Shown one piece after another: positions 3,469 to 60,707 of a DNA stretch of 64,000 nt (positions are counted from its first letter, which is position 1; the number at the start of each line of letters is the position of its first letter). Position numbers and translations under genes: made by a program. This stretch comes from a virus. The notes beneath the pieces are model-generated. The model worked only from the letters and a program-made list of their open reading frames with translations. It was not told the origin of the DNA and made no database searches. The stretch lies in the IMG/VR virus record IMGVR_UViG_3300002056_000074; one strand, 5' to 3'.

Positions 3469-4056
3469 CTAAGATAAGTGACTGAACCAATCAATATAAG
3501 TTCCCTTAAATTGATCTGACTCATATATGTACATTGTATCAGATCGATGAAATATGCGCAATACGTCTAATTTCCCAATTTTGATTTCTGATATTGCATT
3601 TAAAAAATTTGGAACACAAGGAAATGTAACAGAAGTCCCTCGCTCGGGATTTAATCCAAAACCAAAAGATGGAAATTCTAATTTTCCACCATATACCTCA
3701 AAGTTTGTATCTATGGGTGGCGTCTCTAAAAAACTCTTTAGGAAAATAACAGTCTCAAAATCATAATCTTTATTTCGAAACCACATATTATTTTTTCTTA
3801 CTGTGCTGGCACATGTAAACTCTGGAATATAACTTTCAGTATAAGAATCTAAACTAATAATTGAGTTAATTATTTTCGTATTAAAATGTGACCCAATTTG
3901 TGCCTCTAAAAAAGAATTATGTATATTGATATAATTATGACTAAGGGGTTCACTATATACCTTAGTCTCATTTGAAATATCAAGCGTCAAATCGACTATC
4001 TCTTGACAGATTTTTTGGGGGATAAAATTTTGTTGTATTAAAAAGGGTGATTTCAT
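3469..4056 (-). CDS. 2OG-Fe(II) oxygenase-fold protein, apparently degenerate
   Basis: YGGKLEFP..G...P.RG..V.FP motif; no intact HxD...H iron ligands seen. Confidence 0.55.
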   Translation of the reverse strand: MKSPFLIQQNFIPQKICQEIVDLTLDISNETKVYSEPLSHNYINIHNSFLEAQIGSHFNTKIINSIISLDSYTESYIPEFTCASTVRKNNMWFRNKDYDFETVIFLKSFLETPPIDTNFEVYGGKLEFPSFGFGLNPERGTSVTFPCVPNFLNAISEIKIGKLDVLRIFHRSDTMYIYESDQFKGTYIDWFSHLS

Positions 4057-5132
4057 TATCGATCCAATGTTGACAACTCATCACTCACTGGTGACATTTC
4101 ACCATCAACAATATCTGAAGATTCTAAGTGTGTAATTATATCACTAAATGAAATGTCACTTTTTCGAAGTATTTCAACCAATGAGTGTATATCTTCATCA
4201 TGATCCACTCCATGCATTTCATCATGAACATCTACTTCATCATTTATATCATCCATCACGTTAGTTTCTACTCGATCTTCATCTGGATTCGGCAATAAAT
4301 CATCTACCACACTATCTGGAATACTACGTGCAATCATACTCAAATGTTCCCAGTCAACATCATGTGTTTCTAATTTTTGATCTTCCATAATAGATTCTTT
4401 TGAGGGATCGATTAAAAATTTTCCAGCATCTAAAATATTCTGACCTATTAATACTGGATGTTCCATATCCGCACGATTTTTTAGATTAAATTTTACATTT
4501 TCGATTACTTTATCACCCACCTTAATTGACAATTCAATTACTGGTCTATTTTTAACACCATCAGCAGTTTTCACTGCTTGAATATCATTCAGTGGTAGTG
4601 TGATATTATTATTTGAAAGATGTGAACATGAAAAAGTAATCCTATTGGAAGCTTTATCTATATCATAATTATCACAATGTAATGAACTTATATCAGCACC
4701 AGTATCTACCTTCCCCTTCAAAATATTACTTGATGGGAGATTTGTGAATCGTAACTCCATAGTTTCGCCAATGACATCCCTATTATTTGTCGCATCCCTT
4801 TCTACAATATTTGACATACTTTCTTCCCTGTTTAGATTGCGATTATGTCGTGCTCTACTAGTCATTAATATTTTTATGGGCTTCATTTTTTTATAAACAA
4901 ATACCATCCATTCCCGCATATTTTTTTCTTTAATTTGATCCCGATGTTTTGGAATAACTATATAGACGAGATATCCAAAATCTTTCCCGGTTACTATATG
5001 CTTAAATGGTATATTTGAAGATGTTTGGTATTGATACACCATACCTGCAATTTCAATTTTGGTATCTGATGGTTCAATATCACCATTCCTAAAAGCTCTT
5101 GTAGCATCTTCGATTTTTTCAAATTTAAGCAT
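4056..5132 (-). CDS. Retropepsin-like aspartic protease (RimK-associated 'Zn_protease' family) with acidic tail
   Basis: GKVDTGADISSLH and FNLKNRADMEHPVLIGQN motifs. Confidence 0.8.
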   Translation of the reverse strand: MLKFEKIEDATRAFRNGDIEPSDTKIEIAGMVYQYQTSSNIPFKHIVTGKDFGYLVYIVIPKHRDQIKEKNMREWMVFVYKKMKPIKILMTSRARHNRNLNREESMSNIVERDATNNRDVIGETMELRFTNLPSSNILKGKVDTGADISSLHCDNYDIDKASNRITFSCSHLSNNNITLPLNDIQAVKTADGVKNRPVIELSIKVGDKVIENVKFNLKNRADMEHPVLIGQNILDAGKFLIDPSKESIMEDQKLETHDVDWEHLSMIARSIPDSVVDDLLPNPDEDRVETNVMDDINDEVDVHDEMHGVDHDEDIHSLVEILRKSDISFSDIITHLESSDIVDGEMSPVSDELSTLDR

Positions 5133-18837: not shown

Positions 18838-19025
18838 TGAATGAAATAAAATCCCCATGCATCAACATATGCAAGATAGAAATTATCAATAATGAAAAAA
18901 CTTGTGTTGGATGTTACCGAACCTTAGAACAGATTCGAGATTGGGGATTGTATTCAGATGCGGAGCGTGATAAAATTATTGAAGAACTAAAACCTAATGA
19001 ATGCCGTGGTAATATCTATAAATAA
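18837..19025 (+). CDS. DUF1289-family small Cys-rich protein
   Basis: SPCINICKI...CVGCYRTLEQIRDW. Confidence 0.75.
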   Translation: MNEIKSPCINICKIEIINNEKTCVGCYRTLEQIRDWGLYSDAERDKIIEELKPNECRGNIYK

Positions 19026-19036
19026 TGATCAAATAA

Positions 19037-19112
19037 CTGGGTATAGCTCAGTCTGGCCAGAGTGCCGCTCTTGGAGTGCGGAAGTTCGCAGGTTCAAATC
19101 CTGCTACCCAGA
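19037..19112 (+). tRNA. trnP: tRNA-Pro(UGG)
   Basis: Acceptor CTGGGTA/TACCCAG, D arm GCTC/GAGT, anticodon loop CTTGGAG, T arm GCAGG-TTCAAAT-CCTGC; CCA not encoded. Confidence 0.92.
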
Positions 19113-19119
19113 CATTCGA

Positions 19120-19146
19120 ATGGGGAGCCTTAGCTCCCCATTTTTT
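19120..19146 (+). terminator. Rho-independent terminator after tRNA
   Basis: ATGGGGAGC-CTTA-GCTCCCCAT followed by T run. Confidence 0.8.
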
Positions 19147-19205
19147 AAATTTTACCCCCTTAGAATCTTAAAAATAATAAATAGAGTCATACTGAGGGGA
19201 AAATT

Positions 19206-19415
19206 ATGCCACGCATCACAACCACAAAAAGTATTTCGAAAACTGGAAATATTGTTACCGTCACTATGGATAATGATGATGTATACACCACCGATTTATC
19301 TGATTCGGTCATGACTATTAAGGACGCCACTGGCTCAGTGGTGACTCCTGCTAAAAATACCACCATTTATAAGAACGTAGAAACGGCATTTAATGTCATG
19401 CAAAAAATCAATTAA
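19206..19415 (+). CDS. Hypothetical protein
   Basis: 69-aa ORF with GAGGGG RBS; ATAAATA upstream. Confidence 0.6.
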   Translation: MPRITTTKSISKTGNIVTVTMDNDDVYTTDLSDSVMTIKDATGSVVTPAKNTTIYKNVETAFNVMQKIN

Positions 19416-19468: not shown

Positions 19469-19552
19469 TCAGGTTTCGTGATCGAATAGTATTTAATTTG
19501 TAATTTTTGGTGTATAATCCTCAATCACATTTTAAAATTGGGGATGTCAATA

Positions 19553-22225
19553 ATGAATCGAATAACGTTTTTGGTTGTATCCACATTGATAACAGCCAAT
19601 GCTTTCGGACATGGTGCCACCCATGTTGGAGAATTGTCTCCTGAATGGACCTTGCGTGCAGATACTACAAATGTTGAAGGTGGGGCATGGTCAGAACCAG
19701 AAGATTGGCCTGTATTGGCAGTTCATGCGACCGTGTTGCCAACAGGCAATGTATTTGTATGGGATGCAACACCTGATGATTTTGATATCGGGTTTGGAAC
19801 TCGGGAATATCACGATCCTCAGAGAAATCAAACTCGGGTAACAGTCTGGAACCCAACAACCAATGAACATGTTGAAACCTTTAATCCAGATGGAAGTGGT
19901 GATTTGTTTTGCGCTGGTAGTGTTCACTTAACCGATGGAAGAATTATTTTTGCTGGTGGTGATTCTGGTGTGTCCGGGAAAAATGGTGCATCTATAAACA
20001 GTACTATATATAATCCGTGGACGAATCGATGGAAGAGTACTGATAGTATGCACGCTGCTCGATGGTATTCATCTGCTACTTCATTATCAAATGGAGAAGT
20101 ATTGACTGTAGGGGGTTCATATAACCCTGAAACGTATTCAGAAATTTTCGGATTTAATGAAAAGTGGCGAGTATTTGATGCTGAAAGTAATGGCAATGAG
20201 ACATTATCTGGAGATTATGCTTGGTTGGTGGGGGCATCGGATGGATCAGTGGCTTACGTCGGCCCACACAACCGACTAGACAAGATATATGCTGAACCTA
20301 TATTCGACCAAGATGCTTGGGTTAATGGCCCTAAGCGGGATGCACAGGAGCTTGTAGGTGAGTTGGGTTCTTATCGCGGTTATGGTAGCTTTGCCATGTT
20401 TGATAAGGATAAGGTGTTGGTATCTGGTGGTGGATCATCCTCAACATCATCTGTCGTCATTGATATTAAGAATCAAACTGTTACAGAAACCACACCCATG
20501 AATTTTGGTAGGAGACAGCACAACCTCACTGTCCTACCAGATGGTACAGTTTTAGCCACGGGTGGTAATTCATCTGGCGTTGATCTATACGATCCAAATA
20601 ATGGAATCTTGACTCCCGAAATTTGGTCGCCAGATACCGGAACGTGGACTACTATGAACGATATGCAGATTGACCGCCAGTACCATTCAATTGCACTTCT
20701 ATTGCCTGATGCCCGCGTACTTCTTGCAGGTTCTGGTTATTGTATTCCATGCTTTGATTATGGACATGAGGAGCAAAATGCTGAAATATTTTCACCACCT
20801 TATCTTTTTGAGGGTGAACGTCCAGTATTGAACAATGTCCCATTGGCTGCAAATTATGGTGACACTTTGGGGATTACAGTATCTGGTGGTATTGATGCTG
20901 CAAATTTGGTGAAGTTAAGTTCTGTCACACATTCTCAGAGTCAAGATCAGAGATTGGTTAAATTGGAATTATCTGGATCGGGTGATAATTATGATTTGAA
21001 AATGCCTGCAAATCGCGAAGAGGCTCCACCCGGCCCTTATATGTTGTTTGTCCTGAGAGATGGTGTCCCGTCAGTATCTTCAATTATCCAAATCGGTCAA
21101 CCATTGGTACAAACCGAGGATGTTATTTACGGCAATGCTAAACCGAATCGGTGGGAAATGTATGAAATCAAGGGTTTTGATGATCACACATTAACCGTCA
21201 ATTTCAATGGAAATGTTGATGCAACTCATCTTCATGTAGCATCTGGTCGGTGGCCCACACATGACGATGGATTTGAATCATGTTCGATGAAGTCTGAAGA
21301 TGTATTGCAGTGTGTGGTGAGTGCCAACAATGATGCACGTTGGTATGTCGGTGTTTATGGTGAGGATCATAGTGAATTCTCACTGTCTTTTGATATGCGA
21401 GATGGTGTAGTGACTCCTATTGAATCGACAGTATCAACTCCTCGCAATTTTTCAATTCGCCAATTGGACTTGGGTGAATATGAACTAAATTGGTATGGTG
21501 TGCCAGAGGCTGAACATTATGAAGTGATACGAGATGGTCGAATTATGGCTAGGTCTGAATTTACATCATTCATAGATAAAAATTTGAATGCAATGAAATT
21601 CCACTCTTATTCAGTAGTAGCAATTGATGTTGATAATAATCGCTCTGAACCATCAGAGACATTAACGATTCGAACATCAGACACGCCTTACGTTAATGAT
21701 CCTACGACATTTTATAATCCAGTAGTTCCCACCATCCCCGTTGGTATCCGCCTATACAAAGAAGAGGCATCTTCTGGGTATTTAATATGGGAGCGTTCAT
21801 TTGATGATATTGGAGTTGATGGATATTTAATTTATAGAAATGGAGAATTGATTGGTGATCGGGATGATGCTGGTGTGTCATTCCCTCAAAATGATTTGAT
21901 CGTAGGAGAAACTTACACATATCAAGTGAGTGCATATGATCGTGATGGTAATGTTTCAGCACGATCTCAACCATTTACTACAACGGGAACCACATTACCC
22001 ACCTCTCAAGATGTTGTTCCGAATTTAATTGATCCTGATTTCAATCCAGTCGATGTGGGTGGGTATATTAAACCAGAAATACCAACACCAGAACCAGAAG
22101 TAGAGATTGGAGGGGGGGAGGAAACATCTCCCCCACCCAGAAAGGGTGGTGGATCAATTGCGCTGTATATGTTGATGTTGCTCGTTAGTGGTAATGTCTG
22201 GCGTAAACTTTTTAGGAAGGTTTAA
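19553..22225 (+). CDS. Secreted galactose-oxidase-like copper radical oxidase (AA5; Kelch + DUF1929 + PPC + 2 FN3) with GlyGly-CTERM anchor
   Basis: Signal peptide; LFCAG (Cys), ARWY (Tyr), RQYHS (Tyr/His) and VTHS (His) ligands; C-terminus KGGGS-hydrophobic helix-RKLFRKV. Confidence 0.88.
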   Translation: MNRITFLVVSTLITANAFGHGATHVGELSPEWTLRADTTNVEGGAWSEPEDWPVLAVHATVLPTGNVFVWDATPDDFDIGFGTREYHDPQRNQTRVTVWNPTTNEHVETFNPDGSGDLFCAGSVHLTDGRIIFAGGDSGVSGKNGASINSTIYNPWTNRWKSTDSMHAARWYSSATSLSNGEVLTVGGSYNPETYSEIFGFNEKWRVFDAESNGNETLSGDYAWLVGASDGSVAYVGPHNRLDKIYAEPIFDQDAWVNGPKRDAQELVGELGSYRGYGSFAMFDKDKVLVSGGGSSSTSSVVIDIKNQTVTETTPMNFGRRQHNLTVLPDGTVLATGGNSSGVDLYDPNNGILTPEIWSPDTGTWTTMNDMQIDRQYHSIALLLPDARVLLAGSGYCIPCFDYGHEEQNAEIFSPPYLFEGERPVLNNVPLAANYGDTLGITVSGGIDAANLVKLSSVTHSQSQDQRLVKLELSGSGDNYDLKMPANREEAPPGPYMLFVLRDGVPSVSSIIQIGQPLVQTEDVIYGNAKPNRWEMYEIKGFDDHTLTVNFNGNVDATHLHVASGRWPTHDDGFESCSMKSEDVLQCVVSANNDARWYVGVYGEDHSEFSLSFDMRDGVVTPIESTVSTPRNFSIRQLDLGEYELNWYGVPEAEHYEVIRDGRIMARSEFTSFIDKNLNAMKFHSYSVVAIDVDNNRSEPSETLTIRTSDTPYVNDPTTFYNPVVPTIPVGIRLYKEEASSGYLIWERSFDDIGVDGYLIYRNGELIGDRDDAGVSFPQNDLIVGETYTYQVSAYDRDGNVSARSQPFTTTGTTLPTSQDVVPNLIDPDFNPVDVGGYIKPEIPTPEPEVEIGGGEETSPPPRKGGGSIALYMLMLLVSGNVWRKLFRKV

Positions 22226-23615
22226 TAATATTCTCTATATCAGATAACAATTGAGAGATTTTATCAATATCAGATTTTGATAGAGTAATGGTATCAACTT
22301 CCTCCACGGTTGGAACATTGATTTTTGGGGGGAGTTGTGGTGATGGTTTTACTTCTGCTTTTATTTTTTTACCGAATCTATGACTTGATACATATCCATA
22401 TTCTGGCTCAATTTTAATATTATTAGCTGGCCGACGTTCATTTGTTTTGGTTAGGAAACAGGATAGGTATCCATAATATTCAGCCCGTCGATCAACAACC
22501 ATTTTCGTTCTTGAGTTAGTAACACCAGAACTTATTTTATGACTTTTACCGACTGATCCATCCGACATTAATTGGGTCATGGTAACGTCATCTCTAAAAT
22601 TACTAACAGTAAAAATATCACCATCGAAAGTAGTGACTTCCATAGTCCTATCTGATTTGACATTTTTTATAGGAGTAGTGACCCACTCAGTATTTTTTTC
22701 ATTTCGTCTAATATAATAATATTTCTTTTGGCGATCAGGTATAATCATGTGGGGCATACCAGAATCATCTACAGTGATTGATAACATGTTAAATGGTTTT
22801 GGATCACCCTTAGATGTATCCCAGATCAATTGTGTTTGGCTACCGGATTTCGAATTATGATAATAAGCGAATGGCAACTCGGCATGAGTTCCATCGATAT
22901 ATGTCCAATCTGTCCCGTTCATAGACATGATATGAAATAGATCCTGTTGCTTATCTGGACCTCCCCCATTTTTTTCATCCCTCCATAACCCACATAAATG
23001 GAGTCCAGACGGCCCCATTGCAATATTCGAGACATACATCCTCACCCAATCACTCGTATTAATTTGTGCCATTTCGGACCACTTTCCGGTTCTAACATCA
23101 AGTTTTTTCAAATACCAGATGAATAATGGAGCAGTTTTTCCTGAAATTCGTGTATGGTCCTGCTCTCTATATGAGAAACATAGATCATCACCATGATAAA
23201 AGAATTCTGGATAGGTAACTCGATCAGTATCCTTAGTGCCCAATAAACTCCGATTAACATTAGAAAATCCTGAATGTATGGTATATGGTGCATCTGATTT
23301 ACACATGTATAGGGGGTCAACATGATGATCTCCCGCCACGTAAATATATCCTAGAGTGTCAATACCAATTGTAATATTATTGTGACTATCACCATCAACA
23401 GTATTACAACCTAGGGCATCTGAAACATCAACTTCTTTAGACCATTCTCCTTCTGGAAACCTTCGAATGGAAACTTTTGCCCGCCGATCATCCCCCCAAT
23501 AAGTAACTAATTGTGACAGATCTCCATCAACATCTTCGAATGTTGTAAGGTTTTCATTGCCAGATACATTATATTGAAATGAACCATCTAATTTACTAGG
23601 AAGTTTTGCTTGCAT
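22212..23615 (-). CDS. BNR_4-family beta-propeller (family includes PL24 ulvan lyases)
   Basis: DSHNNITIGIDTLGYIYVAGDHH, RVTYPEFF, FSYR motifs; no signal peptide. Confidence 0.7.
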   Translation of the reverse strand: MQAKLPSKLDGSFQYNVSGNENLTTFEDVDGDLSQLVTYWGDDRRAKVSIRRFPEGEWSKEVDVSDALGCNTVDGDSHNNITIGIDTLGYIYVAGDHHVDPLYMCKSDAPYTIHSGFSNVNRSLLGTKDTDRVTYPEFFYHGDDLCFSYREQDHTRISGKTAPLFIWYLKKLDVRTGKWSEMAQINTSDWVRMYVSNIAMGPSGLHLCGLWRDEKNGGGPDKQQDLFHIMSMNGTDWTYIDGTHAELPFAYYHNSKSGSQTQLIWDTSKGDPKPFNMLSITVDDSGMPHMIIPDRQKKYYYIRRNEKNTEWVTTPIKNVKSDRTMEVTTFDGDIFTVSNFRDDVTMTQLMSDGSVGKSHKISSGVTNSRTKMVVDRRAEYYGYLSCFLTKTNERRPANNIKIEPEYGYVSSHRFGKKIKAEVKPSPQLPPKINVPTVEEVDTITLSKSDIDKISQLLSDIENIIKPS

Positions 23616-23727: not shown

Positions 23728-23946
23728 ATGTCTGCACAAGGAAAAATTGAATATTACGAAACTGAATCTGGATGGGAGTGGCGATTTATCGCGGCAAATG
23801 GTGAAGTACTCGCCCACTCAGGCGAAGTGTTTAGTAGTAAACAAGCTGTTCTAAAAAGCATAGAAACCACTACTGAATATTTTATTAATTATGATAAATT
23901 TGGGTTGTTGGTAGAAGTTGATTATAAAAATGGAGAAGAAAAATGA
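23728..23946 (+). CDS. DUF1508/YegP-like protein
   Basis: WEWRFIAANGEVLAHSGEVFSSKQ. Confidence 0.8.
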   Translation: MSAQGKIEYYETESGWEWRFIAANGEVLAHSGEVFSSKQAVLKSIETTTEYFINYDKFGLLVEVDYKNGEEK

Positions 23947-24512
23947 ATTTTAAAGATTTTACACAAAACGCACTTCGAACGGAAAGTGTACCGGATGTAG
24001 TAAGGATACACACTGAATTATTTGAAACTATGCAAGCAGTGTCAGTTAGTGTGGCAGATAATCTCGATCTGATTAAGAAAAATGTTTTTTATGGCAAAGA
24101 TCTTGATCAGGAACGAGTAGTTCGAAATTTGCGACATTGCAAAGTAATGCTAGAAAATCTATCAAAAAATATAGATGGAGATTCGGGGACATTTTCAAAA
24201 ATTGATGAGATGGTCATTAACCCGAGAGAATTTCATGGTGTATTGGGAATTTTGACAGAAGCCAATGAATTATTAGACTGTGTAAATTTAGGTTCAAAAT
24301 CATTGCCCGTAAAGGAGTGCGTGGATGAGTTGGGTGATGTTATGTGGTATACAGCAATTCTGGCGGATGAAAAAAATATTGATGTGGAAGATCAGGTGTT
24401 GGTGGCTGTTATTGATAAACTAAGAACTCGCTTCCCTGATAAATTTGATGCTGCGTTAGCGATTTCAAAAAATAAGGATATTGAAGGTGAAGTAACACAA
24501 AAATATGTTTGA
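23943..24512 (+). CDS. MazG-like nucleotide pyrophosphohydrolase
   Basis: HGVLGILTEANELLD and DELGDVMWYTA. Confidence 0.8.
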   Translation: MNFKDFTQNALRTESVPDVVRIHTELFETMQAVSVSVADNLDLIKKNVFYGKDLDQERVVRNLRHCKVMLENLSKNIDGDSGTFSKIDEMVINPREFHGVLGILTEANELLDCVNLGSKSLPVKECVDELGDVMWYTAILADEKNIDVEDQVLVAVIDKLRTRFPDKFDAALAISKNKDIEGEVTQKYV

Positions 24513-24554
24513 GGGTATTGACAACACACATTCATTTTTGATATAAATATAGTT

Positions 24555-24607
24555 ATCAGATGCCTTATGGGTCTGATATGACATTAAACTTGCTTAACTA
24601 AGAGGAG
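24555..24607 (+). promoter_or_regulatory. ROSE-like RNA thermometer in the hsp20 leader
   Basis: 5' hairpin, then CUUGCUU pairing with SD GAGGAG around a bulged G (ROSE UYGCU signature); TTGACA at 24518 and TATAAATA at 24542 upstream. Confidence 0.6.
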
Positions 24608-24615
24608 AAAATATT

Positions 24616-25044
24616 ATGTCAACTAGAACTTTAGATAGTTTAATGAATGACCTTTTTCGATCAGCTATTGGTTATGACGATCTATTTCGATCTATATCGA
24701 GAGCATCGATCAAACAACCAAATTTCCCACCCTATAATATCGTCAATACCGAAGATGGGCATGTAATAGCTGTTGCTCTAGCAGGATATGGTAATGATGA
24801 TATTGAAGTTACCGTAGATGCCGAAATTCTGACCATTAAAACAGTGGATGAATTGGATACTGCCAAGGATGAAGATGGTTTGGAAAATGTTCAGTATCGA
24901 GGTATTTCAAAACGGAAATTTAATCTTACCTTTTCATTGAATCGAAAATTGGAGGTATCTAGTGCTAAACTAGAAAACGGACTCTTAATGATAGATATAC
25001 GTAATGTAAAAAATGAAGATGTTAAGATGATACCCATCCTCTAA
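24616..25044 (+). CDS. hsp20: Small heat-shock protein (IbpA-like)
   Basis: FPPYNIV, AVALAGY, YRGISKRKF, LENGLLMI. Confidence 0.93.
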   Translation: MSTRTLDSLMNDLFRSAIGYDDLFRSISRASIKQPNFPPYNIVNTEDGHVIAVALAGYGNDDIEVTVDAEILTIKTVDELDTAKDEDGLENVQYRGISKRKFNLTFSLNRKLEVSSAKLENGLLMIDIRNVKNEDVKMIPIL

Positions 25045-25061
25045 TATTATAATGCCGAGTT

Positions 25062-25601
25062 GTGGTGAGGAATTTTTCCTCACCACAACAAGGTTTCAAT
25101 AGGAAGGAGTATTATATTATCGATACTAATGAAACCATAAATTCAATGATCTCTGCAATGAATAAAAAGGATAGAAAAAAATTCTTTAATATAAATTTTA
25201 TGAGTAGACTCATTGATAATTTTTATTGGGGGATGGTTCATCGATTCCACCCCAAGAACAAATACAATACTATAAAAATTAGAAGTCTGAAACCCGGATA
25301 CTATGACCCAGATCAGCGAATTTTGCATGGTTGTTTTGATTTGTTTTGTGAATGGTTTGAAGACGAAAATATATCTAAAAATATAAGAGATGACATGAGC
25401 ACATATTCCAGAGAATGTGTTGATTTATATCACTATTGGATGGTAATCAGGCCCAAATATCTCGATCTTATAGACACCAAATTAATCAACGACGCAACGA
25501 GTGGCAAAACTTCAATGGATCTTCATGAAAAATTAGATGAAATTGATAATAAAATGTTAATTCGATTGATTCACATTAGAACTAGTATATGGTATCTCTA
25601 A
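25062..25601 (+). CDS. Hypothetical protein
   Basis: 179-aa ORF; start uncertain. Confidence 0.6.
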   Translation: MVRNFSSPQQGFNRKEYYIIDTNETINSMISAMNKKDRKKFFNINFMSRLIDNFYWGMVHRFHPKNKYNTIKIRSLKPGYYDPDQRILHGCFDLFCEWFEDENISKNIRDDMSTYSRECVDLYHYWMVIRPKYLDLIDTKLINDATSGKTSMDLHEKLDEIDNKMLIRLIHIRTSIWYL

Positions 25602-25695
25602 TAAAATCAAATAGTTAGAAGTTATTTTTTACTATTTCAAATTTTACCCTAAATAAGTTTATCTTACATTTTTAAGATACTAGAGGATAAAATTT

Positions 25696-26460
25696 ATGGG
25701 TAAAAAGGCTCGCAGATATTCACCCAACGCCACCCAACAGACAGATAACGTAGTATCTCTAAATTACCATGACCAACAAGCGAGATTGCATGGCCCTAAA
25801 AAGAAAAATTGGAGTATACATGATCTCCACAACGTAACTCCCCTAACAGAAAAACAAGAAGATATGTTTCATGCTTGGTTTCAGGGTGATGATATATGCG
25901 CTCATGGTTCAGCGGGAACAGGAAAATCCTTTTTATCGCTATTTTTAGCATGTTCGGAAATGTTAGACCGTGGAGAGCATGATAGGATAATTATTATTCG
26001 ATCTGCAGTTCAGGGGAGAGATATGGGCCATTTGCCCGGATCACTCGAAGAGAAATATGCAGAATATGAGGCTCCATATCAAGCAATTTTATCTGATTTA
26101 TTTGGACGTAAATCAACATATGCAGATATGAAAGAAGCTGGAAAAATAGAGTTTATGACAACTTCATTTATTAGGGGATTAACATTTGACAATGCCATTA
26201 TTATTCTTGACGAATTCCAAAATTGTACGTTTGCAGAAATCGACTCTGTAATGACGCGAGTGGGAAAGAATAGTAGAGTATTGGTGGCTGGTGATGATAA
26301 GCGTCAGTGTGATCTGAGGCACCATGAAGAGACGGGAAGTAATCGAATGATTAGTGCATTTAAGAAGATGGGGGAATTTTCTACTATCGAATTTAATACT
26401 GAGGATGTAGTAAGGTCTGCATATGCTAAATCGTGGTTGTTAGCAACTGGACAAGCCTAA
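25696..26460 (+). CDS. phoH: PhoH-family ATPase
   Basis: GSAGTGKS, GHLPGS, FIRGLTFDN, DEFQN, GD..QCDL. Confidence 0.95.
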   Translation: MGKKARRYSPNATQQTDNVVSLNYHDQQARLHGPKKKNWSIHDLHNVTPLTEKQEDMFHAWFQGDDICAHGSAGTGKSFLSLFLACSEMLDRGEHDRIIIIRSAVQGRDMGHLPGSLEEKYAEYEAPYQAILSDLFGRKSTYADMKEAGKIEFMTTSFIRGLTFDNAIIILDEFQNCTFAEIDSVMTRVGKNSRVLVAGDDKRQCDLRHHEETGSNRMISAFKKMGEFSTIEFNTEDVVRSAYAKSWLLATGQA

Positions 26461-28100: not shown

Positions 28101-28724
28101 ATGAATACTTTAGTTAAAAATAGAAAAATAGAATCCATACCACACATTAATTCCAAGCGAATGTTGGATATCGCTGGTGCATCATTGGCACTATTATTTC
28201 TTGCAGTACCAATGCTTGTTTCTTGTATATTAATAAAACTCACTAGTAAGGGCAGTATTATATATAAACAAACACGAGTCGGATTAAATGGCGAAGAGTT
28301 CGAAATTTTCAAATTTCGAACTCTTTATAGTGATAGGTGTGCTAGTGGCTTTCAGGCAAATTCGGACGATTCTGTAAAAACACCATTTGGAAAATTCGCA
28401 AGAAAATATAGTATTGACGAACTCCCCCAATTATTTAATGTACTGAGGGGTGATATGTCTTTAGTTGGTCCACGTCCCGTTGCACGATATTTGGATGAAC
28501 AGTTTTCTAGTGTTAGAAACTTACAACATCGATATAAAGTACTTCCCGGTATAACAGGTCTTGCACAAATAAATGGTTGTAGGGGTGAAACTACCACTAT
28601 AGAGGAATATCAAAAACGCATCAATTATGATATTTTATATGTCAAACATGCGTCACTATTGTTGGATTTTAAAATATTATTAAATACAGTTCGCACCGTT
28701 TTCACGTCAAACACGGGATCATAA
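28101..28724 (+). CDS. Monotopic phosphoglycosyltransferase (bacterial sugar transferase, PglC/WcaJ catalytic domain)
   Basis: KRMLDI, FKFRTL, SIDELPQLFNVLRGDMSLVGPRP, PGITGLAQING. Confidence 0.93.
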   Translation: MNTLVKNRKIESIPHINSKRMLDIAGASLALLFLAVPMLVSCILIKLTSKGSIIYKQTRVGLNGEEFEIFKFRTLYSDRCASGFQANSDDSVKTPFGKFARKYSIDELPQLFNVLRGDMSLVGPRPVARYLDEQFSSVRNLQHRYKVLPGITGLAQINGCRGETTTIEEYQKRINYDILYVKHASLLLDFKILLNTVRTVFTSNTGS

Positions 28725-29293: not shown

Positions 29294-29524
29294 ATGAGTA
29301 AATTAATCGAAAGTTTAGCCCGTTGGATCGAAGAGGTAGAGTCTGGTGAGCGAAAGGCTCCCAGTAAATATGAATTTGATCGAATTAAAAAAATTGTTGA
29401 TGAAAGTTCAACTACAGAAGATGAAGTAGTTGAAGATGAAGTAGTTGAAGATGAAGTAGTTGAAGAATTACTAGAAAGTTGTTTCTACCGGGGGTATGTT
29501 GATGATTTTGGAAGAATTATTTGA
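29294..29524 (+). CDS. Hypothetical protein with EDEVV x3 repeat
   Basis: 76-aa ORF with GGAG RBS; 15-bp unit GAAGATGAAGTAGTT x3 at 29417-29461. Confidence 0.6.
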   Translation: MSKLIESLARWIEEVESGERKAPSKYEFDRIKKIVDESSTTEDEVVEDEVVEDEVVEELLESCFYRGYVDDFGRII

Positions 29525-30020
29525 GTCAGAAGAAAAACCCCCCGGTACTTATGCTGCAGCCATATTTGATAAAGATTCTCAAAAAATAGTTGCAGACTAT
29601 ATTCGAAAAAATGAAATTCCAAATTCTACCAAACCGACAAAAATACATTGCACTATAATTTACAGTAGAGAACATATTCCAAATTTTAAAATAACTAAGA
29701 ATTATGATACTCCCTTAAAATGTGTACCTAATGGCCTTGTCGTATGGAAAACTCAACCAGATGATGACGGCAATACTAAAAACTGTTTAGTATTAAAATT
29801 GAAGTGTCCTGAAATTGTTAAGCGCCATGAGGAATTAATGCAAAAATACCCGATGGCAACATATGATTATCCAGAATTTAAGGTGCATATGACATTATCA
29901 TATGATATAGATGATATGACTAAGGATGATTTCCCAGATTTCGATGAAGAATTATATCTAAGTGGAGAAATTACAAGTCCATTGGATACTGTTTGGGCCA
30001 AGAAAAACACCAAAAAGTAA
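29496..30020 (+). CDS. acb1: Acb1/T4 gp57B-like 2H phosphodiesterase (anti-CBASS candidate)
   Basis: GTYAAA start, HCTIIYSR and HMTLSYD HxT motifs, LVLKL. Confidence 0.8.
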   Translation: MLMILEELFESEEKPPGTYAAAIFDKDSQKIVADYIRKNEIPNSTKPTKIHCTIIYSREHIPNFKITKNYDTPLKCVPNGLVVWKTQPDDDGNTKNCLVLKLKCPEIVKRHEELMQKYPMATYDYPEFKVHMTLSYDIDDMTKDDFPDFDEELYLSGEITSPLDTVWAKKNTKK

Positions 30021-30073
30021 AAATAGTGTAAAAATTTGCAGATAAATAATATTATTCCTTAAAGAGTAATAAT

Positions 30074-30838
30074 ATGATTTCCAATAATTCATCTACTTTA
30101 GAGTTGACTTCCGAGCCAAATCCACCCGTACATTATTACCAAGAACATATCACTAATATAATACACCATTTTTATCTATCAACTGATATTGGTCCCGCAA
30201 CACATTATGTAGAGATGATTCACGCCATACGTACAGCAGCGCCTACTGATGTCGTCTTCATTCACTTAAATTCTGCTGGTGGTCACTTAGATACTGGAAT
30301 CCAAATAATCAACGCTATGCGCGAATCAAGAGCACATATTATATGTAGTATCGAATCCGAAGCGTACTCAATGGCATCATTAATCTTTTTGAGTGCTGAT
30401 GAATTTATTGTACATGAGAATTGTATGCTAATGATTCATAATTTCAGTAGTGGTATGGTTGGGAAGGGTAATGAACAGCGTTTGCGCCTAGATGCAACAT
30501 CTACACTTTTTGAGCGGTTTGCTCGTCCACTGTATGTACCGTTTATCTCAGAAGATGAATTTGATGGTGTGTTAGACGGGAAAGATATGTGGTTTCACAC
30601 AGATGAAATTCGGGATCGACTCATTAAAAATATGAATATCGCGAATGAAGATGAGATGCTTGGTGTTTTAAATCATGAAGAGGATGATGTTGAAGAAGAG
30701 GAGGTGGAGGTAGTGAAACCCAAACCGAAGCACAAGAAACGCCCGACACCACCACCAGTTAGGGATATAAAAGAGAGTGATGAACATAAGAAACGCATCT
30801 CATTATTAAAAAGTATTGACGCTGATGACGAAGTTTGA
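30074..30838 (+). CDS. ClpP-like serine protease
   Basis: HLNSAGG, AYSMASLIFL (Ser), LMIH (His). Confidence 0.85.
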   Translation: MISNNSSTLELTSEPNPPVHYYQEHITNIIHHFYLSTDIGPATHYVEMIHAIRTAAPTDVVFIHLNSAGGHLDTGIQIINAMRESRAHIICSIESEAYSMASLIFLSADEFIVHENCMLMIHNFSSGMVGKGNEQRLRLDATSTLFERFARPLYVPFISEDEFDGVLDGKDMWFHTDEIRDRLIKNMNIANEDEMLGVLNHEEDDVEEEEVEVVKPKPKHKKRPTPPPVRDIKESDEHKKRISLLKSIDADDEV

Positions 30839-40410: not shown

Positions 40411-41946
40411 TTAATCTTTATCTGATCTTTTCAATAGTTTCATTAGAAGTGCAATTATCCTCTTAATGATCGAAGATGTTGATTCTTCCCCATCGTCCTT
40501 CACTTCTTCTGACTCCATAACTTCTGGTTTAATTATATCACTTCTTCCGATTTTATATACAACTTTTTCGGAATTAATGAATGGTCCACCATCAGGTGTT
40601 GATGTAACATAATATTCTCCTTCAGCACTACCTTCAGGGATAGTCCATTCGGTGCCCACCATCGAAGCTGTGTACACATTATCATTGAATTTGATATCAT
40701 ATTTACTATCTTTATTGACATCATTCCATCGCATGATATTACCATCAATAGTGATATTGAAATCATTAGAATCATTTGCTTCTGTGGTGGTATCAACAGG
40801 CTTAGATGGGGTGGTTACTGTAGATACAATAACTTCATCACTATCTTCAACACCACTTAAGTCGCGCCAATTAGGAGCCAACCAGTTTCCTTCCTGATCT
40901 TCATTTTGGTATACACGAACATATAGGATTGCACTTTTATCAGTCTCCAGTCGCTCATTAGACATAGTTCCGATATTATAACCCCAGAGGCCCGCATCGC
41001 GTTGGATATAGGGTGGATCTGCAGCGATTCCATCACCGCCACCAGCAGCACTATTCCCTTCGCGAGTTAAATATAGTGCCATTGCGATATGTACAATTGC
41101 AACATCATCCCTCGCAACTTCAATTCCATCGACATACCAAATAGTAACGGTGTTATCCCAATATACTGCAATAGTGTGATCACCTTTAGTGATATCAATG
41201 CCAAATTTTCTACAATCAACGGGTGGAATTTTTTTAGAATTTGCACCAATATTTTTACAAAGCAGAAAATGTTCTGCACCCGGTGATGGCTCATATTCAA
41301 AAATGTCACATTCTAAACCGTTTGCAGCAGAATCATCATATGTTCCACCAACCAGCGATCTATCTTCATCAATTGGATCGACGGCTGGTAATAACCAAAC
41401 ACTATTCCTACCACCTTCAACGTTGGTCTGTTCGAAATTTACACCAACTTCTACAAATCCATAACGAAAATAAAAGTTGGGACTATCTTGGCGAGCTGGC
41501 CTAACAGCACCATCATGCCATGACATCGCATAGGTATCTAACCATGAGGTATAAATCTTTTTCCTAAAATCTGCAACGTCACCGTTCCGGGGATTCGTAT
41601 ATGGGTGATGGCTTGATTTAATAGTGGGATCATCTTCATCACTCCTATAAAATCCCATATAAAGAGCACCATCCTTAACTTCAATAGTTTTGTCATGATG
41701 TTTGTCGTACCAAACAGCATGGCGCTTACCATGTGGATACTCACCATCTCTCCTGTTTCCCTGAGTATCAAAACCGAAAGTATTAGTTACATGTTGACTC
41801 ATCTGAGCATTATTTCCCTGAAAATCAGGAAGAATTTTTTCAATTCGCCACTTATCTTTATTCAGGCTATTGCCATTAAATTCATCATTCCAGACCATTT
41901 TCCAGTTTTTATTTTTATATGGTCCATCGTTTATAATTGGTAGCAT
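40411..41946 (-). CDS. Glycoside hydrolase family 16 protein with C-terminal extension
   Basis: WNDEFNG, YGFVE, GLECDIFE (ExDxxE catalytic motif), WYVDG, YVRVYQ; no signal peptide. Confidence 0.85.
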   Translation of the reverse strand: MLPIINDGPYKNKNWKMVWNDEFNGNSLNKDKWRIEKILPDFQGNNAQMSQHVTNTFGFDTQGNRRDGEYPHGKRHAVWYDKHHDKTIEVKDGALYMGFYRSDEDDPTIKSSHHPYTNPRNGDVADFRKKIYTSWLDTYAMSWHDGAVRPARQDSPNFYFRYGFVEVGVNFEQTNVEGGRNSVWLLPAVDPIDEDRSLVGGTYDDSAANGLECDIFEYEPSPGAEHFLLCKNIGANSKKIPPVDCRKFGIDITKGDHTIAVYWDNTVTIWYVDGIEVARDDVAIVHIAMALYLTREGNSAAGGGDGIAADPPYIQRDAGLWGYNIGTMSNERLETDKSAILYVRVYQNEDQEGNWLAPNWRDLSGVEDSDEVIVSTVTTPSKPVDTTTEANDSNDFNITIDGNIMRWNDVNKDSKYDIKFNDNVYTASMVGTEWTIPEGSAEGEYYVTSTPDGGPFINSEKVVYKIGRSDIIKPEVMESEEVKDDGEESTSSIIKRIIALLMKLLKRSDKD

Positions 41947-60664: not shown

Positions 60665-60707
60665 TGTGAGGTAGATCACCGAAAAATACTTTCGTACCCC
60701 CTATAAT
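60665..60707 (+). promoter_or_regulatory. CRP class II-like promoter: TGTGA-GGTAGA-TCACC centred at -41.5 plus TATAAT
   Basis: Box 60665-60680, -10 at 60702-60707, no TTGACA. Confidence 0.6.

What the first reader, a model, noticed from the sequence alone, without database searches (positions are those of the whole stretch)
19553..22225. Phage-encoded surface-anchored copper radical oxidase with a GlyGly-CTERM (rhombosortase) signal
Seen: signal peptide, all four AA5 ligand motifs (Cys/Tyr cofactor, Tyr, His, His), PPC and FN3 domains, and a GG-hydrophobic-basic tail. Known: GlyGly-CTERM proteins are processed by host rhombosortase and displayed via type II secretion in Gammaproteobacteria, and AA5 enzymes oxidise galactosides and release H2O2. 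Inference: the phage makes infected cells display an enzyme that oxidises surface or algal galactans. Possible roles are receptor masking/superinfection exclusion, biofilm loosening or H2O2 warfare. I am not aware of this being a recognised phage auxiliary gene.
Basis: partly seen in the sequence, partly recalled or inferred. Interest (0 to 1): 0.78.

Follow-up and report, generated by a model that had tools for sequence, protein, structure and literature searches.

The report
Giant-phage exported copper radical oxidase
An uncultured giant phage from a seaweed-surface metagenome carries an intact, long-conserved copy of a bacterial secreted copper radical oxidase, complete with export signal and cell-surface anchoring tail. 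It was most likely captured from Granulosicoccaceae, and this kind of enzyme has not been described in phages.

Summary
ORF 19553-22225 (890 aa) is a complete copper radical oxidase (CRO). It keeps Cys120, Tyr172, Tyr377, His378 and His460, has a signal peptide, a PPC-like domain, two FN3 domains, a disordered linker and a Gly-rich/hydrophobic/basic tail.

It is truly phage-borne. T4-type replication genes flank it, its GC3 matches the phage, and intact copies (77-55% identity, dN/dS 0.08-0.25) sit on at least four other phage contigs, one of 302 kb. This scan had already flagged that copy on other DNA.

The nearest cellular relatives are almost all Granulosicoccaceae, dominant seaweed epibionts. 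All five genomes checked have rhombosortase and a type II secretin.

- The tail scores 14.1 bits on TIGR03501, below the 15.5 cut-off, so it is GlyGly-CTERM-like rather than a proven member.
- The two galactose-binding residues of galactose oxidases are absent, so galactoside oxidation is unsupported.

A sister bacterial subclade sits in a cellulose-synthase-like GT2/DUF3131/CRO operon, which mirrors Streptomyces cslA-glxA. The best reading is therefore an early-expressed, host-exported oxidase that remodels an extracellular glycan. The biological role is inferred. No paper describing this was found.

The parts
19474..19518 (+). Promoter-like region: -10 TATAAT (19513-19518), no -35 box, and a CGTGATCG CRP-like half-site in a 22-nt site (19474-19495) centred 28.5 nt upstream of the -10
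   Evidence: Sequence read. One search shows the same geometry (TGTGATCG..., 28-29 nt, TATAAT) at 60702, 62664 and 62563(-), in the presumed early-gene cassettes. No T4-type late TATAAATA motif is present. Timing is inferred, not shown.
19540..19544 (+). Ribosome-binding site GGGGA, 8 nt before the ATG
19553..22225 (+). Copper radical oxidase gene, 890 codons plus stop
19553..19609 (+). Sec-type signal peptide (MNR, hydrophobic core ITFLVVSTLIT, ANAFG; predicted cut before His20)
   Evidence: Hydropathy 1.85; AF2 helix 2-15; equivalent N-termini in all homologues. No lipobox or twin-arginine motif. Inferred.
19610..19624 (+). HGATH: predicted mature N-terminus. His20 is invariant in 23 homologues, and a second His usually follows 3-5 residues later
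   Evidence: Function unknown; a copper-capture role is speculation.
19670..20812 (+). Seven-bladed kelch propeller carrying Cys120 (19910-19912), Tyr172 (20066-20068), stacking Tyr190 (20120-20122), Tyr377-His378 (20681-20686) and the Cys397/Cys400 pair
20819..21094 (+). Galactose-oxidase-like E-set domain supplying the ligand His460 (20930-20932)
   Evidence: Pfam PF09118 2.6e-21; alignment to His581 of galactose oxidase
21110..21418 (+). PPC-like beta-sandwich domain with two invariant Cys
   Evidence: Pfam PPC E 0.092; fold match to PPC domain 5sv5 at E 9.6e-4 and to ColG/ColH collagen-binding domains; invariant Cys
21434..21997 (+). Two FN3-like domains (about residues 628-712 and 728-815)
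   Evidence: 1k85 FN3 at E 3.5e-6; FN3 region of NF041611 at 5.5e-17; beta-strand pattern
21998..22144 (+). Pro/Glu-rich disordered linker
   Evidence: pLDDT below 50 for residues 820-871
22145..22222 (+). GlyGly-CTERM-like sorting tail: GGGS, 15-residue hydrophobic helix, RKLFRKV
   Evidence: TIGR03501 14.1 bits against a 15.5 cut-off; AF2 helix 870-889. It scores 8.7 bits on a profile of 28 Granulosicoccaceae oxidase tails, and 0 of 250 shuffles reach that score.

Best explanation
What it is. This is a host-derived 'moron' of a T4-related giant phage: a complete secreted copper radical oxidase. An ancestor of this phage lineage captured it whole (catalytic head, PPC and FN3 stalk, linker and sorting tail) from a Granulosicoccaceae-type gammaproteobacterium, and the lineage has kept it under purifying selection.

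Proposed course of events; only the sequence features are shown, the steps are inferred.
1. Host RNA polymerase transcribes it from an early-type promoter that lacks a -35 box.
2. The Sec system exports it and the signal peptide is cut before His20.
3. Copper loads and the Cys120-Tyr172 cross-link forms.
4. The C-terminal helix first holds it in the inner membrane.
5. Host rhombosortase then processes the tail, and the type II secretion system carries the enzyme to the cell surface, where the stalk of about 350 residues holds it out.

There it oxidises a primary alcohol (or aldehyde) group on an extracellular substrate to the aldehyde (or acid), releasing H2O2.

The most likely substrate is a glycan that the infected cell makes or sits in, as for Streptomyces GlxA, not free galactose. 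The likely benefit to the phage is remodelling of the host envelope or biofilm glycan, for example to exclude superinfecting phages, alter the receptor, or keep or free the infected cell in the algal biofilm.
For: Phage origin:
- The flanks are ribonucleotide reductase, homing endonucleases, MazG, Hsp20, PhoH, ThyA, primase, topoisomerase II, gp41-type helicase and a split PolB.
- The closest cultured phages are 300-490 kb T4-related myoviruses.
- GC3 is 0.297, within the phage gene range of 0.20-0.30, against 0.50-0.53 in the Granulosicoccus orthologues.
- Intact copies lie on four more independent phage contigs next to gp32/UvsX/topoisomerase II or MazG/PhoH/ThyA, and L106 is a further fragment.
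- dN/dS among the phage copies is 0.08-0.25, with saturated dS.

Enzyme: all ligand residues are invariant, and fold matches are to galactose oxidases, aryl alcohol and alcohol oxidases and GlxA.

Donor and host:
- Across 185,579 species genomes, the best cellular relatives are almost all Granulosicoccaceae.
- In the tree the phage copies are monophyletic (100*) and group with Granulosicoccaceae (99*).
- Only Granulosicoccus proteins of the L006-L008 type share the whole PPC, 2xFN3 and tail layout (45% identity over residues 44-852).
- The DNA comes from an algae metagenome. A Granulosicoccaceae-like contig lies in the same metagenome as the 302 kb relative.
- Granulosicoccus dominates kelp surfaces (PMC9238374).

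Export route:
- The tail has the tripartite layout, and the signal peptide is the only other hydrophobic segment. These are Haft's criteria (PMC3237569).
- Sister phage copy P0006 passes TIGR03501.
- 28 of 33 Granulosicoccaceae homologues end in the same kind of tail.
- 5 of 5 Granulosicoccaceae genomes have rhombosortase above the cut-off (0 of 14 controls) and GspD.
- No rhombosortase was found in the window or in the fetched flanks of the related phage contigs.
- In Vibrio cholerae this tail with rhombosortase is sufficient for membrane association (PMC13393428, PMC6219818).

Glycan substrate:
- A sister bacterial subclade (L009, L010, L011, L013) is encoded as BcsA-like GT2 (7lby, 3.5e-38), DUF3131, then the oxidase, followed in L013 by a copper P-type ATPase. 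This parallels Streptomyces cslA-glxA-endoglucanase (PMC3543389).
- The phage also carries a priming sugar transferase (Bac_transf 3e-60, also present in L095) and two glycan-cleaving-type genes.
Against: - No experiment or transcript supports expression.
- The tail of this copy is under the TIGR03501 cut-off (14.1 against 15.5 bits). Two sister phage copies (P0004, P0005) do not hit the model at all, and only 6 of 37 family tails do at E 0.1 or better.
- The host is unknown. No CRISPR, tRNA or prophage link was obtained, and phage GC (0.35) is far from Granulosicoccaceae GC (0.47-0.55).
- An AU test does not reject a tree with the phage clade outside a monophyletic Granulosicoccaceae (p 0.167). 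'Sister to or nested in' is all that can be said.
- The GT2 operon belongs to a neighbouring subclade whose oxidases lack the anchor tail. It is absent from the subclade that shares the phage's architecture (L006-L008).
- The substrate is unassigned. A small alcohol or an algal polymer is equally compatible with the active site.
- The enzyme conserves no energy, so any benefit to the phage is conjecture.
Confidence: 0.7

Rival explanations
1. Classical auxiliary metabolic gene. The phage copy simply continues the host's own ecological job on the seaweed surface. That job would be oxidising algal exudates or cell-wall polymers (polyols, galactans, other alcohols), or making H2O2, to free nutrients or to act on neighbours or the alga. 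It would not act on the host's own envelope.
For: The donor family is a seaweed epibiont with 1-4 such oxidases per genome (PMC9238374). The sample is an algae metagenome. The phage also carries GH16-like and BNR_4 (GH145/PL25-like) genes. Viral laminarinase auxiliary genes are reported from kelp viromes (PMC11126160). Tyr at the stacking position and loss of the galactose-binding Arg fit a broader alcohol range.
Against: The reaction passes electrons to O2 and yields no energy or carbon by itself. The enzyme is tethered to the cell rather than released. The sister operon with a cellulose-synthase-like GT2 points to a self-made glycan. The GH16-like and BNR_4 proteins have no signal peptide, so they do not obviously work alongside it outside the living cell.
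Confidence: 0.2
2. Plain membrane-anchored periplasmic oxidase. The C-terminal segment is just a stop-transfer anchor that rhombosortase does not process, so the enzyme stays on the outer face of the inner membrane and acts in the periplasm.
For: The TIGR03501 score is below the cut-off here and absent for P0004 and P0005. Only 6 of 37 family tails hit the model. Streptomyces GlxA is itself membrane-associated (PMC3543389). In Vibrio cholerae, GlyGly-CTERM plus rhombosortase gives membrane association, but a second signal is needed to cross the outer membrane (PMC13393428).
Against: The Gly/Ser motif, helix and basic cluster are kept in all four phage copies, and they score above shuffles on a profile of Granulosicoccaceae tails. 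One phage copy has the canonical SGGS...RRIK tail. The 50-residue disordered linker before the tail is typical of GlyGly-CTERM proteins such as VesB (PMC13393428). The candidate host family has rhombosortase and a type II secretion system.
Confidence: 0.2
3. Virion-associated enzyme. The FN3/Ig-like stalk would display the oxidase on the capsid or tail so that the particle can modify glycans as it moves through the algal or biofilm matrix.
For: Ig/FN3-like domains are common on phage particles (general knowledge). The neighbouring BNR_4 and GH16-like genes look like late, signal-less, possibly virion-attached enzymes.
Against: A Sec signal peptide and a C-terminal membrane anchor do not fit cytoplasmic virion assembly. 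The promoter is of the early type, not the late type. The architecture is inherited whole from a bacterial surface protein.
Confidence: 0.04
4. Artefact or dead cargo: host DNA mis-assembled into a phage contig, or a decaying passenger gene.
For: The gene's GC (0.42) is above the window mean of 0.349. One relative (P0007 in L095, a 6.8x contig) is truncated.
Against: The same gene lies in the same neighbourhood in five independent assemblies. GC3 equals that of the phage genes. There are no stops, all catalytic residues are kept, and dN/dS is well below 1 over divergence down to 55% identity.
Confidence: 0.02

Closest known systems
Granulosicoccus / Granulosicoccaceae secreted copper radical oxidases (uncharacterised; e.g. 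the 1001-aa protein of MAG SGMAG-09, locus L006 / P0010)
   Same: Same full architecture: signal peptide with conserved N-terminal His, propeller, E-set, PPC-like domain, two FN3 domains, linker and a Gly-rich/hydrophobic/basic tail. Identity is 45% over residues 44-852 and 57% in the catalytic part. They are the closest branch in the tree.
   Different: These are chromosomal, with GC3 of 0.50-0.53 against 0.30. The phage clade sits on a long stem of 0.6 substitutions per site. None has a known substrate.
Streptomyces GlxA (radical copper oxidase of the cslA-glxA-cslZ locus; PDB 4unm; NCBIfam NF052501)
   Same: A bacterial, exported, membrane- or cell-associated copper radical oxidase with the same Cys-Tyr/2 His/Tyr site. 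It acts with a cellulose-synthase-like GT2 on a cell-made glycan (PMC3543389). A sister Granulosicoccaceae subclade has the same GT2/glycanase-like/oxidase gene order. This is what the phage enzyme most plausibly works like.
   Different: It scores only 178 bits against the 800-bit equivalog cut-off and shares about 20% identity in the fold alignment. GlxA has an N-terminal anchor, an extra domain and a Trp stacking residue. The phage gene has no adjacent GT2.
Galactose 6-oxidases (Fusarium graminearum GalOx, AA5_2, PDB 1gof; Pseudoarthrobacter siccitolerans GalOx, PDB 9g43/9g8h)
   Same: These are the best sequence and fold matches (5e-54; Foldseek 4e-36; 27-31% identity). The five cofactor and ligand residues are identical and the Cys515/Cys518-type pair is kept.
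   Different: The galactose-binding Arg330 is Leu218, the Gln406 loop is deleted and Trp290 is Tyr190. There is no N-terminal CBM32-type domain. The phage protein adds a PPC domain, two FN3 domains and a sorting tail.
GlyGly-CTERM / rhombosortase substrates (VesB, VesC, Xds of Vibrio cholerae; ExeM of Shewanella; TIGR03501)
   Same: It has an N-terminal signal peptide, an unstructured linker, then a Gly/Ser motif, a transmembrane helix and a basic cluster at the very C-terminus, with no Cys in the motif (PMC3237569, PMC6219818, PMC13393428).
   Different: The HMM score is just under the cut-off. The gene lies in a phage that, in the parts available, has no rhombosortase, so the protein would depend on the host's. 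No oxidase of this kind is among the GlyGly-CTERM substrates named in the papers read here (PMC3237569, PMC13393428).
Phage morons and auxiliary genes that act on host surface glycans (O-antigen-modifying seroconversion genes, viral laminarinase/GH16 auxiliary genes)
   Same: It is a host-derived gene inside a phage genome that is not needed for replication or assembly and is aimed at extracellular or envelope carbohydrate (PMC11126160 for viral CAZyme auxiliary genes in kelp holobionts; seroconversion from general knowledge).
   Different: The known examples are transferases, acetylases, hydrolases or lyases. An O2-dependent radical oxidase with a host sortase-type signal was not found in 50,697 GenBank phage records or in the literature searched.

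Membership tests
Copper radical oxidases (CAZy AA5 in the broad sense) | Cys and Tyr that form the thioether-linked radical cofactor | tested here: met
   Cys120 (DLFCAG) and Tyr172 (ARWYSS) align to Cys228 and Tyr272 of galactose oxidase and are invariant in 23 homologues. The cross-link itself cannot be tested here.
Copper radical oxidases (CAZy AA5 in the broad sense) | Copper ligands: axial Tyr plus two His | tested here: met
   Tyr377-His378 (RQYHS) and His460 (VTHSQ) align to Tyr495-His496 and His581
Copper radical oxidases (CAZy AA5 in the broad sense) | Seven-bladed kelch propeller followed by the E-set domain that inserts the last His | tested here: met
   PF09118 at 76 bits against a cut-off of 25, plus Kelch_6. 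Foldseek TM-score 0.63-0.64 (normalised to target length) to 1gof, 9g43 and 4unm.
Copper radical oxidases (CAZy AA5 in the broad sense) | Family HMM above the curated threshold / CAZy (dbCAN) assignment | tested here: inconclusive
   Pfam Glyoxal_oxid_N scores 37.0 bits against a 37.5 cut-off. No dbCAN AA5 model was available. Bacterial oxidases are said to fall outside subfamilies AA5_1 and AA5_2 (PMC11267884).
Copper radical oxidases (CAZy AA5 in the broad sense) | O2-dependent oxidation of an alcohol or aldehyde with release of H2O2 | not testable with these tools
   Needs an enzyme assay
Galactose 6-oxidase (EC 1.1.3.9, AA5_2 GalOx type) | Galactose-binding Arg330 and Gln406, and Trp290 stacked on the cofactor | tested here: not met
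   Arg330 is Leu218 (also against the bacterial galactose-bound 9g8h), the Gln406 loop is deleted and Trp290 is Tyr190
GlxA (NCBIfam NF052501 equivalog) | Score above the equivalog cut-off | tested here: not met
   178.4 bits against 800
GlxA (NCBIfam NF052501 equivalog) | Genetic linkage to a cellulose-synthase-like GT2 (cslA) | tested here: not met
   No GT2 lies next to the phage gene. The linkage is present in the sister bacterial subclade L009, L010 and L013 (L011 is cut upstream).
GlyGly-CTERM sorting domain (TIGR03501) | HMM score at or above the trusted cut-off of 15.5 bits | tested here: not met
   14.1 bits on the last 40 aa and 13.6 bits on the last 45 aa. Sister phage copy P0006 scores 21.6 bits; P0004 and P0005 give no hit.
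GlyGly-CTERM sorting domain (TIGR03501) | Tripartite layout at the extreme C-terminus: Gly/Ser motif without Cys, transmembrane helix, basic cluster | tested here: met
   GGGS / IALYMLMLLVSGNVW / RKLFRKV ends the protein; AF2 helix 870-889
GlyGly-CTERM sorting domain (TIGR03501) | N-terminal signal peptide and no other membrane segment | tested here: met
   Only residues 4-18 and the tail reach transmembrane-like hydropathy; criterion from PMC3237569
GlyGly-CTERM sorting domain (TIGR03501) | Co-occurrence with rhombosortase (TIGR03902) in the same cell | tested here: inconclusive
   None was found in the window or in the fetched flanks of the related phage contigs. It is present above the cut-off in 5 of 5 Granulosicoccaceae genomes and 0 of 14 controls. 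The true host is unknown.
Phage-borne host-derived gene (moron / auxiliary gene) | Phage genes on both sides, and the same gene in independent related phage genomes | tested here: met
Phage-borne host-derived gene (moron / auxiliary gene) | Cellular origin shown by phylogeny, and composition adapted to the phage | tested here: met
   The phage clade (100*) groups with Granulosicoccaceae (99*). Nesting inside that family is not decisive (AU p 0.167). GC3 is 0.297, like the phage genes.

The most novel reading that the evidence does not exclude
A lytic giant phage hijacks its host's rhombosortase and type II secretion pathway early in infection to plant a radical copper oxidase on the infected cell's surface. 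There it rewrites the host's own exopolysaccharide or capsule, which is the phage's receptor or the biofilm glue, by turning sugar C6 alcohols into aldehydes. That would be an oxidative mode of phage-driven surface remodelling (superinfection exclusion or matrix cross-linking), mechanistically distinct from the known transferase, acetylase, hydrolase and lyase routes. The invariant N-terminal His of the mature protein would be a built-in copper-capture site.
Probability: 0.25. Interest if true: 0.8.

Novelty: new variant of a known kind. Interest (0 to 1): 0.62.

Why it matters
Copper radical oxidases are known from fungi, plants and a few bacteria, where they shape cell walls and drive pathogenesis. 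Phage auxiliary genes for carbohydrates are so far hydrolases, lyases and transferases. A phage lineage that has kept an exported, tethered radical oxidase for a long time would add three things.
- It adds a new chemistry, O2-dependent glycan or alcohol oxidation with H2O2 release, to what phages are known to do to their hosts' surroundings.
- It gives a first case of a phage protein built to use a host C-terminal sorting protease.
- It links these giant phages to Granulosicoccaceae, the dominant and still poorly understood bacteria of kelp and seagrass surfaces.
It also exposes an uncharacterised bacterial oxidase clade, with a conserved N-terminal His and in one branch a cellulose-synthase-like operon, that is worth biochemical study and could be useful as a biocatalyst.

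Tried and rejected
- **Whole genome:** none is held for this window.
- **IMG/VR, single protein:** the scan found nothing.
- **IMG/VR, alignments:** these scans found only two contigs of the 302 kb lineage, plus one provirus-edge locus (L119). L119 is an oxidase-GDSL lipase fusion beside a YadA adhesin and a transposase-like gene. It looks like bacterial flank, not phage cargo.
- **GenBank phages:** tblastn found only FN3 matches in Listeria phage records and no oxidase domain.
- **Expression:** no RNA holder was listed for the gene in public runs.
- **Conserved oxidase + BNR_4 cassette:** rejected. In L002 and L095 the convergent neighbour is not BNR_4. It is the GH16-like gene that lies 18 kb away in this window (59% identity).
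- **Phage-encoded rhombosortase:** none found by tblastn.
- **TIGR03501 across 37 family tails:** only 6 hits at E 0.1 or better, so the curated model cannot decide membership for this clade.
- **Nesting in Granulosicoccaceae:** the AU test was not significant (p 0.167).
- **DUF3131:** no solved relative in PDB.
- **Literature:** searches on phage with copper radical oxidase, on Granulosicoccus with galactose oxidase, on the Pseudoarthrobacter enzyme and on phage with GlyGly-CTERM found nothing relevant.
- **Promoter scan:** the generic sigma-70 scan did not call the promoter because there is no -35 box.
- **Not attempted:** a CRISPR-spacer or tRNA host link, because the tools are not suited to it.


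Full report
**1. The gene.** A single ORF runs from 19538 to 22225 on the + strand. The ATG at 19553 follows a GGGGA by 8 nt, and all homologues align from this Met. I therefore take 19553-22225, 890 aa, as the gene (P0002).

**2. The enzyme.**
- Pfam finds the galactose-oxidase E-set domain at residues 423-514 (2.6e-21), kelch motifs, and Glyoxal_oxid_N at 37.0 bits against a 37.5 cut-off.
- NCBIfam's GlxA model matches at 1.9e-52 but far below its equivalog cut-off.
- phmmer against PDB gives galactose oxidases at 5e-54 to 1e-42, then Colletotrichum aryl alcohol and alcohol oxidases, then GlxA.
- The alignments put Cys120, Tyr172, Tyr377-His378 and His460 on Cys228, Tyr272, Tyr495-His496 and His581 of the Fusarium enzyme. 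All are invariant in an alignment of 23 homologues, as is the Cys397/Cys400 pair.
- An AF2 model (pLDDT 76.8) matches the bacterial galactose oxidase 9g43 at E 4e-36, then the fungal enzymes.

So the active-site observation is confirmed.

The residues that hold galactose are not kept. Arg330 aligns to Leu218, both against the fungal enzyme and against the galactose-bound bacterial enzyme 9g8h. The loop carrying Gln406 is absent, and the stacking Trp290 is an invariant Tyr190. The protein is a copper radical oxidase, but nothing says it is a galactose oxidase.

**3. The rest of the protein.**
- *N-terminus.* Residues 1-19 have a basic start, an 11-residue hydrophobic core and ANAFG. AF2 draws a helix at 2-15, and hydropathy marks this and the C-terminal tail as the only membrane-like segments.
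- *Conserved His.* The residue after the predicted cut, His20, is invariant in all 23 homologues, usually as A-H-x(2-4)-H.
- *PPC-like domain.* Residues 520-622 are only faintly PPC by Pfam (E 0.092). Modelled alone (pLDDT 86) their best structural match is a collagenase PPC domain (5sv5, E 9.6e-4), followed by the ColG/ColH collagen-binding domains.
- *FN3 domains.* Residues 628-815 are two FN3-like domains, supported by chitinase A1 FN3 at E 3.5e-6 and the CbhB FN3 region at 5.5e-17.
- *Linker and tail.* A disordered Pro/Glu-rich linker (816-864) leads to GGGS-IALYMLMLLVSGNVW-RKLFRKV.
- *Tail score.* TIGR03501 gives the tail 14.1 bits (E 0.062), against a cut-off of 15.5.

**4. It belongs to a phage.**
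- *Gene content.* The window holds a split family-B polymerase, an exonuclease, a gp41-type helicase, ribonucleotide reductase, several HNH homing endonucleases, MazG, Hsp20, PhoH, ThyA, DHFR, primase, both topoisomerase II subunits, Acb1 and a ClpP-like protease. No bacterial housekeeping genes are present.
- *Relatives.* Its helicase and topoisomerase are closest (33-40% identity) to the 300-490 kb T4-related myoviruses XacN1, Atu_ph07, GAP32 and CBB.
- *Composition.* The gene's overall GC (0.42) exceeds the window mean (0.349). That excess lies in codon positions 1 and 2. GC3 is 0.297, inside the phage range of 0.20-0.30, against 0.50-0.53 in the Granulosicoccus orthologues.
- *Other phage copies.* Homologues of 77, 57, 55 and 56% identity sit on other phage contigs:
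  - a 70 kb contig (L001);
  - a 302 kb contig, beside gp32, UvsX, topoisomerase II and UvsW (L002, also two IMG/VR entries);
  - two 15 kb contigs, beside MazG, PhoH and ThyA (L094, L095);
  - one further fragment (L106).
- *Selection.* Among four intact copies dN/dS is 0.08-0.25 with saturated synonymous sites.

Contamination and decay are excluded. First-stage notes of this scan had already flagged the 302 kb copy on other DNA.

**5. Rarity.**
- tblastn against 50,697 GenBank phage records finds no oxidase domain.
- Pattern scans of IMG/VR find only the 302 kb lineage and one provirus-edge locus that looks bacterial.
- The literature library holds no description of a phage copper radical oxidase or a phage GlyGly-CTERM protein.
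- One automatic KEGG table lists 'GAOA' among Lake Baikal viral transcripts.

**6. Where it came from.**
- *Closest cellular relatives.* A scan of one genome per 185,579 species returns Granulosicoccaceae for nearly all of the best 40 matches (38-50% identity). Caldilineaceae, Actinomycetota, Acidobacteriota and others follow.
- *Tree.* In a maximum-likelihood tree of the catalytic region the phage copies form one clade (SH-aLRT 100). It lies inside a clade otherwise made only of Granulosicoccaceae (99), next to the long, FN3-bearing proteins (90).
- *Limit.* An AU test does not reject placing the phage clade outside a monophyletic Granulosicoccaceae (p 0.167). The safe statement is 'sister to or nested in'.
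- *Shared architecture.* The full PPC, 2xFN3 and tail architecture is shared only with Granulosicoccus proteins such as L006 (45% identity over residues 44-852). This independently favours capture from that family.
- *Habitat.* The window's DNA is held only by runs labelled algae metagenome. The metagenome with the 302 kb relative also holds a Granulosicoccaceae-like contig with the bacterial form.
- *Ecology from the literature.* Granulosicoccus is the most abundant kelp-surface bacterium (PMC9238374) and a commonly predicted host in a kelp virome (PMC11126160).

**7. The export route.** Haft's definition of GlyGly-CTERM is a Gly-rich motif (often SGGS, never with Cys), a transmembrane helix and a basic cluster at the very C-terminus. 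It also requires a signal peptide, no other membrane segment, and co-occurrence with rhombosortase (PMC3237569).
- This protein meets all the architectural points but misses the HMM cut-off by 1.4 bits.
- Among sister phage copies, P0006 has a canonical tail (SGGSLGLLGLLGLIMLNIRRIK, 21.6 bits). P0004 and P0005 keep the layout but do not hit the model.
- 28 of 33 complete Granulosicoccaceae homologues end in the same kind of tail, yet only 6 of 37 tails reach E 0.1 or better. The curated model is therefore insensitive for this clade.
- On a profile built from the bacterial tails, the four phage tails score 4-12 bits against about -1 for shuffles.
- All five Granulosicoccaceae genomes tested have rhombosortase above its cut-off (0 of 14 controls) and a GspD secretin.
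- No rhombosortase is encoded in the window or in the fetched flanks of the related phage contigs.
- In Vibrio cholerae the tail and rhombosortase suffice for membrane association, and a second signal takes the protein across the outer membrane (PMC13393428, PMC6219818).

Use of the host pathway is therefore a well-founded inference, not a demonstrated fact.

**8. Timing.**
- A tRNA-Pro (19037-19113) and a strong hairpin with a T-run (19118-19143) lie upstream.
- The gene has its own TATAAT at 19513-19518 with no -35 box.
- A CGTGATCG half-site is centred 28.5 nt upstream of the -10. Full TGTGATCG...TCAC sites lie in front of the presumed early mini-genes at 60-63 kb with the same spacing. An earlier agent's note gave this lead.
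- There is no T4-type late TATAAATA motif.

Early, host-polymerase transcription would suit a protein that needs working host export machinery.

**9. What it acts on.** Direct evidence is lacking, but two contexts point to glycans.
- *Bacterial operon.* In one of the two bacterial subclades nearest the phage clade (L009, L010, L011, L013), the oxidase follows a BcsA-like processive GT2 (7lby, 3.5e-38) and a DUF3131 protein. In L013 a copper P-type ATPase comes next. This mirrors the Streptomyces cslA-glxA-endoglucanase locus, where GlxA is needed with CslA for a tip glycan (PMC3543389).
- *Phage glycan genes.* The phage carries other glycan genes:
  - a priming sugar-phosphate transferase (Bac_transf, 3e-60; also present in L095);
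  - a BNR_4 propeller related to GH145 rhamnosidases, convergent with the oxidase and overlapping it by 14 nt;
  - a GH16-like gene whose orthologue is the oxidase's convergent neighbour in L002 and L095.

The latter two lack signal peptides, so they probably act from the virion or after lysis, not alongside the oxidase.

I therefore favour remodelling of a host-made or host-embedding glycan. An auxiliary role on algal substrates or H2O2 production is the main rival. The tail may also be only a membrane anchor.

**10. Verdict.** The family (copper radical oxidase) and the sorting signal type are known. Their presence, conserved and intact, in a lineage of giant phages appears to be undescribed. 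This is a new variant of a known kind (a host-derived phage gene acting on the cell surface), of moderate to high interest.

Noticed in passing
window 19037-19143: tRNA-Pro (UGG) at 19037-19113, followed at once by an 11-bp GC-rich hairpin and a T-run (19118-19143). The listed ORF 18997-19314 overlaps them and is probably not a gene.
   Followed up: partly
window 19610-19624 and alignment A1: The first residue after the predicted signal-peptide cut, His20, is invariant in 23 phage and bacterial homologues, usually as A|H-x(2-4)-H. It could be an N-terminal copper-binding (His-brace- or ATCUN-like) site for loading the oxidase. No test was possible, and the AF2 model is disordered there.
   Followed up: partly
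window 22212-23615 (-): A 467-aa BNR_4 propeller (PF15892, 1.5e-35) whose nearest solved relatives are GH145 rhamnosidases (5mvh, 5mum, 5muk). It has no signal peptide and ends in a Pro-rich linker plus helix. It is convergent with the oxidase and overlaps it by 14 nt. It is not the neighbour of the oxidase in related phages.
   Followed up: partly
window 40411-41946 (-); L002 12698-14215 (-); L095 8237-9805 (-): A 511-aa GH16-like protein (Pfam only 0.006; W-N-D-E-F-N and E-x-D-x-x-E motifs). Its orthologue (59% identity) is the convergent neighbour of the oxidase in the 302 kb relative and, by position and shared motifs, in L095. Like the BNR_4 protein, it ends in an acidic linker plus an amphipathic helix, which may be a shared docking element.
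   Followed up: partly
window 28101-28724 (+); L095 9960-10547: A stand-alone priming sugar-phosphate transferase (Bac_transf, 3e-60) lies between ThyA and DHFR and is conserved in a related phage contig. It is a second sign that these phages interfere with host surface-glycan synthesis.
   Followed up: partly
L013 2229-11451; also L009, L010, L011: Granulosicoccaceae operon: BcsA-like GT2, DUF3131, copper radical oxidase (this subclade has a different C-terminal domain instead of the anchor tail), then in L013 a copper P-type ATPase with YHS and HMBD domains. It is a gammaproteobacterial analogue of Streptomyces cslA-glxA that seems undescribed.
   Followed up: partly
window 29496-30838: An Acb1 anti-CBASS nuclease homologue (PF23474, 8.7e-29) is followed by a ClpP/NfeD-like protease. 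The same pair occurs in L095.
   Followed up: no
window 23943-26460: MazG, Hsp20 and PhoH lie in a row. This trio is typical of marine T4-like phages, here in a giant phage related to the XacN1/Atu_ph07 group.
   Followed up: no
L119 4506-6821 (IMGVR_UViG_2617271021_000002): A copper radical oxidase fused to a GDSL lipase/esterase domain (771 aa) lies beside a YadA-type trimeric autotransporter and a transposase-like gene, at the edge of a predicted provirus from an isolate genome. It is probably bacterial flank rather than phage cargo.
   Followed up: partly
L095 4613-7463: The oxidase copy on this 6.8x-coverage contig is split (759 aa plus a 197-aa ORF). Its sequence becomes unrelated after about residue 700. 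This is probably an assembly or read-error frameshift rather than real decay.
   Followed up: no
window 4056-5132 (-): A 358-aa protein with a putative ATP-dependent zinc protease domain (PF05618, 8.5e-15) lies inside the replication module.
   Followed up: no
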